Assembly: GCA_043814605.1 (NCBI GenBank)
Contig: JBDRJV010000027.1
Span: 1-60,422 of the forward strand
From: Candidatus Omnitrophota bacterium
Lineage (GTDB): Bacteria > Omnitrophota > Gorgyraeia > B26-G9
Length of the DNA: 60,422 nucleotides
Direction: 5' to 3'
Part shown: positions 47,114 to 47,408 of the stretch, one piece after another
Position numbering within the stretch: the first letter of the stretch is position 1
How the letters are laid out: every line of letters begins with the position of its first letter
Made by a program: the position numbers and the translations under genes
Notes under the pieces: model-generated
What the model was told of the DNA's origin: nothing
What the model saw: the letters and a program-made list of their open reading frames with translations, nothing else
Databases searched by the model: none

Positions 47114-47408
47114 TTTCCCTCCTTTAAATGAGTGCATAATTTACAAACACAACGTGTTTTTAAATTATCTGCACGAATTTATCCCGTCCCGAATGAAGTT
47201 TTCTTCGCAGAATTTCTTCGGGATCCCGAAGAGAATCTAAATAAAAATTCTTCTTTCGGGAAAGCTTATGATTAATCTCAAAAAAATTTCAAATGTTTAA
47301 GCAAGGGGCAATGAGCACATTATTTCAGGAACAACGTGATTTAAGTAATATGTGCGAATTAAATCCCGCCTGTCCCGCTGTTTTTAGGCGGGGCCGCCTT
47401 TTGGCGGG
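47114..47408 (-). promoter_or_regulatory. Structured gdhA 5' leader with two tandem copies of the same RNA motif as at 32422-32745
   Basis: Unit helices lie at 47132-47174 and 47315-47355. Each is followed by UCAUU, and the proximal unit ends in the shared UCAUUUAAAGGAGGG. Confidence 0.6.

What the first reader, a model, noticed from the sequence alone, without database searches (positions are those of the whole stretch)
47114..47408. Tandem structured RNA motif filling the ~300-nt gdhA leader (candidate riboswitch-like or protein-binding element)
Between the terminator and the gdhA SD lie two related units. Each has a G/C-rich 5' part (GGGAC..GGGAU[A/U][A/U]AAUUC) and then a helix with a 4-bp base, a 2-nt bulge, a 7-8 bp AU helix and a 17-nt loop. 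Each is followed by the conserved UCAUU. The distal unit helix is GCAC-AU-AUUACUU/AAAUAAU-GUGC (47355-47315). The proximal unit helix is GUGC-AG-AUAAUUUA/UAAAUUAU-GCAC (47174-47132). The base helix is thus flipped by two compensatory pair changes, and the upper helix differs in sequence while keeping its pairing. Both loops share CACGUUGU. The proximal unit ends in UCAUUUAAAGGAGGG, which is the ribosome-binding site. The distal unit ends in UCAUUGCCCC, a possible anti-SD. I could not match it to any riboswitch class I know (glutamine, glycine, ZTP, guanidine, c-di-GMP and TPP consensus elements are absent).
Basis: seen in the sequence. Interest (0 to 1): 0.75.

Follow-up and report, generated by a model that had tools for sequence, protein, structure and literature searches.

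The report
Mobile hairpin repeats in gdhA leader
The two structured units upstream of gdhA are real, but they are copies of a dispersed, insertion-like hairpin repeat found next to many unrelated genes in Omnitrophota bacteria, so they are not a gdhA-specific riboswitch; the likely nitrogen-responsive control is a separate ANTAR-type attenuator just upstream.

Summary
Observation confirmed. There are two related ~100-180-nt units, and their local alignment scores 36 against 15.5 ± 2.2 for shuffles. The helices, the CACGUUGU loop and the UCAUU sit at the stated coordinates. There is no Rfam match.

Interpretation only partly right. A metagenome scan and covariance models show that each unit belongs to a widespread family. 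A member has a G+C-rich hairpin P1 closed by CCC/GGG, a linker AAUUC, and a ~55-nt hairpin P2 that ends in CUCAUU. In P2, 95.8% of cells are paired and 14 of 19 pairs show compensatory changes.

Members lie next to unrelated genes (tpiA, lpxD, coaD, V-ATPase genes, groEL, transporters). They are absent from the gdhA leaders of nine relatives. At three V-ATPase operon junctions they appear as precise insertions flanked by TAA on both sides. Many form 160-235-nt cassettes with inverted P2 arms. One top-scoring copy is antisense to its host transcript.

Best reading: a MITE/REP-like mobile palindromic element, with two solo copies carried passively in the gdhA 5' UTR. The "terminator" upstream of the units belongs to an ANTAR-type antiterminator/terminator that is conserved in Omnitrophota gdhA leaders. 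The window also encodes a GAF-ANTAR protein. The family looks undescribed but is of a known kind.

The parts
47122..47184 (-). Proximal unit, hairpin P2. Layout: AAU-UC-GUGC-AG-AUAAUUUA...loop CACGUUGUG...UAAAUUAU-GCAC-UC-AUU. It ends 3 nt before the SD.
   Evidence: Covariance model R2 scores it 71.6 bits, E = 3.8e-19. The fold is -14.8 kcal/mol with z = -3.4.
47185..47308 (-). Proximal unit, P1 domain. It holds two G+C-clamped hairpins (47260-47224 and 47222-47187). CCC 47307-47305 probably closes the domain by pairing with GGG 47185-47183. The linker GGGAUAAAUUC follows.
   Evidence: Pattern matches. The MFE of the whole leader pairs CCC with GGG around the two hairpins. Fold z = -5.6. The P1 closing helix A(U/C)CCC...GGG(G/A)U is seen in most family members.
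47305..47365 (-). Distal unit, hairpin P2. It is a partly decayed copy: the upper stem has a C.A mismatch and the inner stem is lost.
   Evidence: R2 scores it 60.9 bits, E = 8e-16. On its own the fold is weak (z = -0.9).
47363..47410 (-). Distal unit, hairpin P1 (AUCCCGCC...GGCGGGAU). It is homologous to the P1 of the copies at 32.5 kb through the shared ...GGACAGGCG.
47117..47122 (-). gdhA Shine-Dalgarno GGAGGG. The start codon ATG is at 47113-47111, and a second in-frame SD plus ATG lies at 47068.
   Evidence: Most homologues are 446 aa, which corresponds to the second start.
45728..47113 (-). gdhA, NADP-specific glutamate dehydrogenase.
   Evidence: Best hits are Candidatus Omnitrophota GdhA at 83-88% identity.
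47413..47492 (-). ANTAR-type attenuator of the gdhA leader. This is not part of the repeat element. P1 is 47490-47470 (loop AAUGUUU). The P2 mini-hairpin is 47461-47446 (gaaac-AAAGAC-guuuc). The intrinsic terminator is 47456-47423, followed by a U tract.
   Evidence: Terminator scan. Fold z = -5.2. Conserved in 9 other Omnitrophota gdhA leaders. ANTAR criteria taken from PMC3369931.
47498..47526 (-). Promoter-like site: TTGACA (47526-47521), a 17-nt spacer whose last three bases are TGa (TG 47506-47505), then TAAGCT (47503-47498). Its position is conserved in relatives.
   Evidence: Read. This is inference from consensus only.
32430..32491 (-). Second locus, proximal copy of the element (P2). 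It is followed by UUAAAGGAGGGGGUAUG and a 73-aa ORF.
   Evidence: R2 scores it 44 bits, E = 1.6e-10. Sequence.
32570..32631 (-). Second locus, distal copy. The 78-nt unit AAUUCCCGCC...GCUCAUUU is identical to the proximal one, while the flanks are unrelated.
   Evidence: R2 scores it 43.3 bits. Sequence.
37144..37842 (-). GAF-ANTAR regulator gene, the candidate trans-factor for the attenuators.
   Evidence: Pfam GAF_2 2.9e-20 and ANTAR 9.1e-20. 55% identical to the GAF-ANTAR gene directly upstream of gdhA in L003.
51300..51395 (-). Second ANTAR-type attenuator (auaac-AAAGAC-guuau overlapping a terminator), upstream of the gene cluster (probable operon) of the 50440-51276 gene and the gltD-like gene 49028-50425.

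Best explanation
The two units are solo copies of a dispersed, insertion-like palindromic repeat family (MITE/REP-like) that is common in some Omnitrophota genomes. A unit is a G+C-rich hairpin domain P1 closed by (A/U)(U/C)CCC...GGG(G/A)U, a 1-3-nt spacer, and a ~55-nt irregular hairpin P2. P2 reads AAU-UC-GNNC-bulged A-10 bp (core ACUUA/UAAGU)-UC-RC-loop-GY-UC-...-GNNC-UC-AUU.

Full-length members are 160-235-nt cassettes with two inverted P2 arms. They lie between TAA trinucleotides, typically exactly at a stop codon/start codon junction.

Shown: family membership, covariation, presence/absence at orthologous sites, TAA on both flanks, the inverted-arm architecture, and the lack of any functional theme among neighbouring genes.

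Inferred: the element spreads by transposition into TAA or TGA. The transposase is unknown. The intra-arm hairpins suggest recognition of folded single-stranded DNA, but a DDE-type MITE is not excluded. In this window two copies landed, or one was duplicated, between the ANTAR-controlled terminator and the gdhA ribosome-binding site. They are transcribed passively as part of the 5' UTR whenever the attenuator is read through. There they fold into stable hairpins that leave the start codon free and do not sense a metabolite. Any effect on gdhA, such as mRNA stability, RNase III-type processing or a modest effect on translation, would be a by-product.
For: Family and structure:
- A strict pattern scan of metagenome contigs gave 16 loci. 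The same pattern gave 0 in viral contigs.
- In the hits, the Y/R choices left free by the pattern are Watson-Crick complementary in 16/17 and 17/17 sequences. The unconstrained gaps form 9-10-bp stems.
- On 27 members, 95.8% of cells are paired and 14/19 pairs have double changes. No shuffle out of 500 reaches this, and slid controls give about 30%.
- No Rfam family matches.

Not linked to gdhA:
- Downstream genes include a TPR lipoprotein, a SurA-like protein, an MFS transporter, V-ATPase E and C, LhgO-like, CoaD, YfcE, TpiA and LpxD.
- 800 kb of other gdhA loci contain only two hits, neither in a gdhA leader.
- The closest relatives' gdhA leaders go from the attenuator to the SD in 30-70 nt without the element.

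Insertion behaviour:
- V-ATPase B->D junction: L111 reads 'GAC TAA AAGAATG' and L116 reads 'GAC TAA [GTGAGGAC...230 nt...GGGCTCAT] TAA AAATG'.
- C->E junction: 'TAA ATG' in L111 against 'TAA[235 nt]TAA A ATG' in L107.
- E->AC39 junction: L107 is filled in the same way, and the element end supplies the stop codon.
- pgk-tpiA junction: 'TAA|TGAACT-P1-P2-CTCAT|TAA|TG'.
- After CTCA(T/C), the flank is TAA, TTAA or TGA in about 21 of 26 copies.

Other points:
- The inverted arms are 54-68% identical.
- At 32.5 kb the identical 78-nt units have unrelated flanks, which marks a discrete portable unit.
- The best-scoring copy (L108, 84 bits) lies antisense between the groEL stop codon TAA and the groEL terminator.
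- G.U pairs are no more frequent than A.C mismatches (11 against 9), so there is no RNA-strand signature.
- The host lineage is Omnitrophota.
Against: - No transposase or autonomous copy was found in the sequence held. A tblastn with an IS200 TnpA sequence recalled from memory found nothing.
- The window's own four copies are solo units with no recognisable second arm. Only the proximal ones have a TAA on the 3' side, so the insertion evidence comes from other genomes.
- Orientation is strongly biased. About 18 copies have the CUCAUU end directly before an SD or a start codon in the sense orientation, and only about 2 do not. A purely selfish element inserting at random would not show this.
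- Hairpins inside terminal repeats, with covariation and conserved UC/UC internal loops, are not needed by classical DDE transposases.
- At the orthologous L096/L098 site, P2 is 100% identical while the adjacent coding sequence differs by about 11%. That could mean selection on the inserted copy.
Confidence: 0.72

Rival explanations
1. The P1-P2 unit is a generic, portable RNA-level expression module that has been co-opted or is functional. Placed directly 5' of the RBS or start codon, it would be recognised by a lineage-specific RNA-binding protein or RNase. It would then stabilise the 5' end, insulate cistrons, or direct cleavage after CUCAUU so that the downstream mRNA starts at the SD or at the AUG (leaderless). 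Mobility would only be the way it spreads.
For: - The CUCAUU end lies 1-4 nt before either an SD or, where there is no SD, the AUG, in about 18 copies, nearly always in the sense orientation.
- It occurs inside operons, between pgk and tpiA and between V-ATPase genes.
- Loop and internal-loop nucleotides are conserved across genomes.
- P2 is identical at the orthologous L096/L098 site despite about 11% divergence in the neighbouring coding sequence.
- Transcribed MITEs are known to be RNase III substrates (PMC10969869).
Against: - Adjacency to the start codon is explained more simply by insertion at the stop codon of a stop/start junction, with TAA on both sides. TAATG and TGATG junctions are regenerated.
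- The best-conserved copy is antisense to its host transcript.
- G.U is not favoured over A.C.
- The cassette is symmetric with inverted arms, which an RNA module has no need for.
- Relatives do without it at the same junctions.
Confidence: 0.2
2. The tandem units would be a gdhA-specific riboswitch-like or protein-binding operator that senses a nitrogen metabolite and controls translation through SD/anti-SD pairing.
For: - The units are structured (leader z = -4.4).
- They are arranged in tandem and end at the SD.
- CCCUU after the distal unit can pair with GAGGG of the SD, with probability of about 0.65.
- There is no known Rfam class.
Against: - The family is not associated with gdhA or with nitrogen genes.
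- It is absent from orthologous gdhA leaders.
- SD pairing is not beyond shuffles.
- The CCC run is better explained as the 5' strand of the proximal P1.
- The distal copy is decayed.
- A conserved ANTAR attenuator and a GAF-ANTAR protein already account for nitrogen control.
Confidence: 0.03
3. This is a variant of the main mechanism. The element would not be a cut-and-paste DDE MITE. It would be a hairpin-dependent single-strand DNA element, like REP/RAYT or IS200/IS605-derived palindromic elements. It would insert 3' of TAA and carry its own terminal TAA, so the apparent duplication would not be a true target-site duplication.
For: - The subterminal hairpins show covariation, a bulged base and mismatches.
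- The target is a short, specific, AT-rich sequence.
- There is a strong orientation bias in genomes whose genes are almost all co-oriented: all but one of the 50 ORFs of at least 120 aa in the window are on one strand.
- G.U is roughly equal to A.C, as expected for DNA hairpins.
Against: - The two arms of full cassettes are truly inverted. Arm B scores only on the opposite strand, whereas IS200/IS605 ends carry hairpins of the same polarity on one strand (from my own knowledge).
- There is no conserved GTAG.
- No Y1 transposase was found in the sequence held.
Confidence: 0.25

Closest known systems
Prokaryotic MITEs (for example Correia elements of Neisseria, ERIC, RUP, QMITE)
   Same: - Small size (100-235 nt) and non-coding.
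- Found in AT-rich intergenic sites.
- Terminal inverted repeats in full-length copies.
- A short direct repeat of the target (TAA).
- Multiple dispersed copies and presence/absence at orthologous sites.
- Transcripts fold into very stable stem-loops next to genes (definition from PMC10969869).
   Different: - Each ~60-nt arm is itself a conserved irregular hairpin with covariation and conserved loops.
- Solo one-armed units are common.
- The sense orientation is strongly preferred.
- Insertion is at stop codons of stop/start junctions.
- No parent IS has been identified.
REP/BIME elements with RAYT transposases, and IS200/IS605-derived palindromic elements
   Same: - High-copy extragenic palindromes occurring singly, in tandem or in inverted pairs.
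- Often just after stop codons.
- Hairpin structure rather than sequence is conserved.
- Orientation bias.
   Different: - P2 (about 55 nt) is longer than a REP.
- There is no GTAG tetranucleotide.
- The arms are inverted.
- No RAYT or TnpA gene has been seen. This comparison rests on my own knowledge and was not tested beyond.
IS5-family / PIF-Harbinger-type elements and their MITEs (3-bp TNA/TWA duplications)
   Same: A 3-bp TAA duplication at the insertion site.
   Different: This rests only on my recollection of ISfinder/Harbinger target-site rules. The termini, (G/A)TGAG...CTCAT, were not compared with any IS.
Riboswitches and tandem riboswitch arrangements (glycine, guanidine-II)
   Same: Tandem structured units in a 5' UTR that ends at the RBS, with strong covariation.
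   Different: - No coherent regulon.
- No match to any Rfam class.
- Found antisense and in 3' UTRs.
- Behaves as an insertion.
- No expression platform beyond chance.
ANTAR-responsive dual-hairpin antiterminators (EutV, NasR, AmiR targets). This applies to the upstream attenuator, not to the repeat.
   Same: - A mini-hairpin with a hexaloop A..G.. (AAAGRC) whose loop and 3' arm form the 5' arm of an intrinsic terminator.
- An upstream hairpin with an AAUGU loop.
- A nitrogen-assimilation gene downstream.
- An ANTAR protein encoded nearby.
   Different: - The first loop is often 7 nt.
- The regulator has a GAF input domain.
- The lineage is Omnitrophota.
- No experiment exists.

Membership tests
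Riboswitch / metabolite-sensing leader | Match to a described aptamer class | tested here: not met
   Rfam 15 at gathering threshold and at E <= 10 over the region gives only chance-level hits. Eight family loci give none.
Riboswitch / metabolite-sensing leader | Association with a coherent set of genes tied to one metabolite | tested here: not met
   The downstream genes are unrelated to one another: tpiA, lpxD, coaD, V-ATPase E/C/D, an MFS transporter, a SurA-like gene, a yfcE-like gene and gdhA.
Riboswitch / metabolite-sensing leader | Expression platform (terminator or SD sequestration) coupled to the aptamer | tested here: inconclusive
   No U tract follows P2. SD pairing with CCCUU has p of about 0.65 but is not lower than shuffles. 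In many members the AUG follows with no SD.
MITE | Small, non-coding, multiple dispersed copies | tested here: met
   Units are 78-235 nt. There are 4 copies in the window, 5 in the 9-kb L107, and 2 each in several other loci.
MITE | Terminal inverted repeats | tested here: inconclusive
   Met in 7 two-armed cassettes from other genomes, with arms of 60-79 nt that are 54-68% identical. Not met by the four solo copies in the window.
MITE | Target-site duplication, with empty and filled orthologous sites | tested here: met
   TAA lies on both sides at three V-ATPase junctions, compared with empty sites in L111, L113 and L116, and at pgk-tpiA. A model in which TAA is part of the element end cannot be excluded.
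MITE | Related autonomous element or transposase acting in trans | not testable with these tools
   None is present in about 1.2 Mb of held sequence.
REP/RAYT or IS200/IS605-type palindromic element | Conserved hairpin with a 5' GTAG-like guide, and a Y1 (HUH) transposase in the genome | tested here: inconclusive
   The hairpin is conserved. There is no GTAG. A tblastn with a recalled IS200 TnpA sequence found no hit, but the genomes are incomplete.
ANTAR target RNA (upstream attenuator 47413-47492) | Mini-hairpin with a hexanucleotide loop, A at position 1 and G at position 4, overlapping the 5' arm of an intrinsic terminator | tested here: met
   The window has gaaac-AAAGAC-guuuc. 11 of 11 leaders have A..G.. 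hexaloop hairpins with covarying 5-7-bp stems inside the terminator. Criteria from PMC3369931.
ANTAR target RNA (upstream attenuator 47413-47492) | A second, upstream hairpin with the same kind of loop (dual hairpin) | tested here: inconclusive
   An upstream hairpin is present in most leaders. Its loop is AAUGUUU, AAUGUAG or AACGUA, which gives A1 and G4 but is often 7 nt. It is not evident in L092.
ANTAR target RNA (upstream attenuator 47413-47492) | An ANTAR-domain protein encoded by the same organism, and a nitrogen-metabolism target | tested here: met
   A GAF-ANTAR gene lies at 37144-37842. Homologues lie beside gdhA in L003, L011, L005 and L001. The targets are gdhA and a gltD-like gene cluster.

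The most novel reading that the evidence does not exclude
The P1-P2 unit is more than selfish DNA. It would be a portable post-transcriptional module used across Omnitrophota. A lineage-specific protein or RNase would recognise the P2 hairpin, with its two UC/UC internal loops and conserved apical loop. That factor would cut or remodel the mRNA right after CUCAUU, so that cistrons are expressed from SD-first or leaderless 5' ends. This would be bacterial 'mRNA punctuation' spread by transposition into stop codons.
Probability: 0.12. Interest if true: 0.7.

Novelty: new member of a known kind. Interest (0 to 1): 0.35.

Why it matters
For this window, the result removes a false riboswitch lead and moves the likely nitrogen control of gdhA to an ANTAR attenuator with a GAF-ANTAR regulator.

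More generally, it defines an apparently uncatalogued repeat family, with a usable covariance model, in an uncultured phylum. Such a family can mislead searches for structured RNAs, because mobile palindromes also show covariation.

The family's preference for TAA stop codons at stop/start junctions, its sense-orientation bias and its hairpin-shaped arms make it a useful case. It can help in studying how repeats reshape operon junctions and 5' UTRs in compact genomes.

Tried and rejected
Database and look-up attempts:
- Rfam at gathering and E-value thresholds on the window and on eight family loci gave nothing relevant.
- Exact look-up of the window's 461-aa GdhA is not on record. Gene callers use the 446-aa start.
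- P0002, apparently the closest GdhA, turned out to be an unrelated high-GC enzyme with an internal duplication.
- blastn of the units against the window and the loci found no other copies. It even missed the similarity between the two units themselves. The covariance model was needed.
- Viral-contig scans for both arm types gave 0 hits.
- tblastn with a recalled IS200 transposase found no hit.
- Cluster look-up for taxonomy returned no names. Taxonomy was then obtained from V-ATPase B homologues.
- Literature searches for an Omnitrophota RNA motif or repeat found nothing.

Readings considered by eye and dropped:
- Sigma-54 promoter: no GG-N10-GC.
- TnrA/GlnR, NtrC or CRP-type DNA operators: covariation argues against a sequence-specific dimer site.
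- Leader peptide in the terminator loop: SD spacing is too short and the feature is not conserved.
- NusB/boxA resemblance of GCUCAUUAA: it lies in a helix and nothing requires it to sit next to a start codon.
- Integron attC: no RYYYAAC/GTTRRRY, and the flanking genes are housekeeping genes.
- Self-cleaving ribozyme classes and an RNase P/Z tRNA-like substrate: no match.

Other:
- The anti-SD idea was tested and is not beyond shuffles.
- The G.U against A.C strand test was uninformative for RNA.
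Full report
**What is in the window.**
gdhA lies on the minus strand at 45728-47113. It follows a gltD-like gene and an isocitrate dehydrogenase gene, and it precedes carA and carB. Its closest homologues are GdhA proteins of Candidatus Omnitrophota at 83-88% identity, so the window comes from an Omnitrophota genome. 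The distal helix spans 47355-47315 and the proximal helix 47174-47132. Both have 17-nt loops with CACGUUGU, an octamer that occurs nowhere else in the window. Both have the 5' GGGAC..GGGAU(W)(W)AAUUC and the trailing UCAUU. The SD follows directly after the proximal unit.

**Is it more than chance?**
The two units align with a local score of 36. In 1000 dinucleotide shuffles the score was 15.5 ± 2.2 with a maximum of 24. MAFFT gives 76% column identity. The base helix GCAC/GUGC is exchanged for GUGC/GCAC by two compensatory pair changes. The whole 321-nt leader folds with z = -4.4.

Folding adds two points. First, AAU and AUU of the conserved flanks pair across a symmetric UC/UC internal loop. 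Second, each unit includes an upstream domain closed by AUCCCG...CGGGAU, a pattern found only at these two places in the window.

**Not a known RNA family.**
Rfam 15 gives only three tRNAs in the window at gathering threshold. Over the region at E ≤ 10 it gives nothing better than chance-level hits.

**The gdhA leaders of relatives lack the units.**
I fetched gdhA loci from 80 species representatives and from the contigs of the closest homologues. Loci with the same gene order (two Iso_dh genes, or a gltD-like and one Iso_dh gene, then gdhA; carA follows in all but one) share a promoter-like site and a short attenuator. After the attenuator the SD follows within 30-70 nt. None has the two units. 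A covariance model found the element in only two of 89 such loci (800 kb), and neither hit was in a gdhA leader. The ~300 nt holding the units is therefore a lineage-specific insertion between attenuator and SD.

**The units belong to a widespread family.**
I scanned the metagenome contigs with AATTCGYRC-N(9-19)-CACGTTGT-N(8-18)-GYRCTCATT. This returned 16 loci. The same pattern found none in 2.9 million viral contigs.

The hits are not chance. The Y/R positions that the pattern left free are Watson-Crick complementary in 16/17 and 17/17 sequences. The unconstrained gaps form 9-10-bp stems with many compensatory changes.

A model built from them (R1) found further, more divergent copies. On 27 members, 95.8% of cells are paired and 14 of 19 pairs show double changes. 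No shuffle out of 500 reaches this, and sliding the partners drops pairing to about 30%. The base helix also covaries (AAU/AUU, AAGU/ACUU, AUUU/AAAU).

The consensus architecture is as follows:
- a G+C-rich hairpin P1 of variable length, closed by (A/U)(U/C)CCC...GGG(G/A)U;
- 1-3 nt of spacer;
- then P2: AAU-UC-GNNC-(bulged A)-10 bp with core ACUUA/UAAGU-U-UC-RC-loop-GY-UC-...-GNNC-UC-AUU.

None of eight family loci matches Rfam. V-ATPase B of the richest locus (L107) is closest to Omnitrophica proteins.

**The family is not tied to gdhA or nitrogen.**
Genes next to the CUCAUU end include the following:
- a TPR lipoprotein
- small membrane proteins
- a SurA-like chaperone
- an MFS transporter
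- V-ATPase E, C and D subunits
- an LhgO-like oxidase
- CoaD
- a YfcE-like phosphoesterase
- TpiA
- LpxD
- a giant 2241-aa protein

This excludes a riboswitch for a gdhA-related metabolite.

**The family behaves as an insertion.**
In about 18 copies the CUCAUU end lies 1-4 nt before an SD or, with no SD, before the AUG. I first read this as a translation or processing signal. Comparing orthologous V-ATPase operons gives a simpler explanation.
- **B→D junction.** L111 reads GAC TAA AAGAATG. L116 reads GAC TAA [GTGAGGAC...230 nt...GGGCTCAT] TAA AAATG.
- **C→E junction.** L111 and L116 read TAA ATG and TAA GTG. L107 reads TAA [235 nt] TAA A ATG.
- **E→AC39 junction.** L107 is filled in the same way, and the element end supplies the stop codon.
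- **pgk–tpiA.** The unit lies between two TAA, regenerating the overlapping TAATG.

After CTCA(T/C) the flank is TAA, TTAA or TGA in about 21 of 26 copies.

Full-length members are cassettes of 160-235 nt with this layout: an inverted "type-B" P2 arm (AAGUUCGGAC...GUCCUCACUU), P1, a spacer, P1, and a "type-A" P2 arm. The arms are 54-68% identical.

In the window, the two copies at 32.5 kb share an identical 78-nt unit with unrelated flanks, which marks a discrete portable unit. The best-scoring copy of all (L108, 84 bits) lies antisense between the groEL stop codon TAA and the groEL terminator. G.U pairs are no commoner than A.C mismatches (11 against 9). Conservation therefore does not depend on being a sense RNA.

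These are the defining properties of MITE/REP-like mobile palindromes as summarised in PMC10969869. Adjacency to the start codon follows from insertion into the stop codon of tight stop/start junctions.

**What remains unexplained.**
- The orientation bias (about 18 sense against about 2) is unexplained.
- The hairpin form of each arm, with conserved UC/UC internal loops, is unexplained.
- At the orthologous L096/L098 site, P2 is identical although the neighbouring coding sequence differs by about 11%.

These points are not what a random-inserting DDE-type MITE predicts. They fit two alternatives. One is a single-strand, hairpin-dependent transposition mechanism coupled to replication. All but one of the window's 50 ORFs of at least 120 aa are on one strand. 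The other is secondary selection for an RNA-level role such as stability, RNase III-type processing or cistron insulation. No transposase was found in the held sequence, and the collection scans were exhausted.

**The window's own copies.**
The proximal unit (P2 47122-47184, 71.6 bits) has a branched P1. Two hairpins, 47260-47224 and 47222-47187, are probably closed by CCC 47307-47305 pairing with GGG 47185-47183. On that reading it abuts the distal unit (P2 47305-47365, 60.9 bits; P1 47363-47410). This explains the 182-nt period.

The alternative pairing of CCCUU with GAGGG of the SD is predicted at p ≈ 0.65. Shuffled upstream sequences sequester the SD just as well: native unpaired probability 0.30, shuffles 0.26 ± 0.18, and 66% of shuffles are at or below native. 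The distal copy is decayed in its upper stem. All four copies in the window are solo units with no second arm.

**The real regulatory candidate.**
The "terminator" at 47456-47423 is preceded by a promoter-like site. This site is TTGACA, a 17-nt spacer ending in TGa, then TAAGCT, spanning 47526-47498. Two further features lie between it and the terminator: a hairpin at 47490-47470 with loop AAUGUUU, and a mini-hairpin gaaac-AAAGAC-guuuc at 47461-47446. The loop and 3' arm of the mini-hairpin form the 5' arm of the terminator.

The same arrangement occurs in nine other Omnitrophota gdhA leaders, with covarying stems and hexaloops AAAGRC or AGAGAC. It occurs a second time in the window, upstream of the gltD-like gene cluster, at about 51300-51395.

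This matches the published ANTAR recognition rule. That rule calls for small hairpins with hexanucleotide loops, A at position 1 and G at position 4. The second hairpin overlaps the terminator, and the targets are mostly nitrogen-metabolism genes (PMC3369931).

The window encodes a GAF-ANTAR protein at 37144-37842. Homologues lie beside gdhA in L003, L011, L005 and L001.

Nitrogen control of gdhA is thus most likely ANTAR antitermination. The repeat units lie downstream of that switch and are transcribed passively.

**Verdict.**
The element is real, structured, conserved and uncatalogued. It is, however, a mobile palindromic repeat family of Omnitrophota, not a gdhA riboswitch. It is a new member of a known kind, of moderate-to-low interest. 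There remains a modest chance (about 0.12) that the unit has been co-opted as a general mRNA-processing or expression module.

Noticed in passing
window 47413-47492 (-), and window about 51300-51395 (-): Two ANTAR-type antiterminator/terminator leaders. Each has a mini-hairpin with hexaloop AAAGAC that overlaps an intrinsic terminator. One lies upstream of gdhA and the other upstream of the gltD-like gene cluster. The same design occurs in nine other Omnitrophota gdhA leaders.
   Followed up: partly
window 37144-37842 (-): A GAF-ANTAR regulator gene next to pyrG. Its homologues lie within 5 kb of gdhA in L003, L011, L005 and L001. It is the likely trans-factor for the attenuators.
   Followed up: partly
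window 47068-47113 (-): gdhA has two in-frame start codons, each with its own SD: AGGAGGGAAAAUG at 47113 and GGUGGAGAAAAUG at 47068. The 15-aa extension [15 protein letters not shown] is conserved in some homologues (L091, P0007), but most are called from the second start.
   Followed up: no
window 32200-32652 (-): A second tandem pair of the element (identical 78-nt units) lies upstream of a 73-aa basic ORF that has no Pfam match.
   Followed up: partly
L108 3270-3345: The best-scoring copy of the element lies antisense between the groEL stop codon (the GGMGGMGGMM-TAA end) and a bidirectional terminator.
   Followed up: yes
L107 895-930: The V-ATPase E gene has lost its last two or three codons. 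It now ends at a TGA supplied by the element terminus GTGAGG.
   Followed up: partly
L113 6300-6520 and 11400-11560: Other, unrelated short repeats (gattacacagatt... units and hairpins) fill the same V-ATPase intergenic junctions. Nearby are a LAGLIDADG endonuclease gene and a serine recombinase gene.
   Followed up: no
L103 1760-8485: A 2241-aa giant ORF lies 91 nt downstream of a type-B-like copy of the element.
   Followed up: no
L094 2423-4384 (protein P0002): A high-GC glutamate dehydrogenase of 653 aa has an internal duplication of the C-terminal domain. This is why it scored as the top hit. It is unrelated to the window's organism.
   Followed up: yes
window, whole: All but one of the 50 ORFs of at least 120 aa are on the minus strand. 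Three tRNA genes lie at 25657-26022 (-).
   Followed up: no
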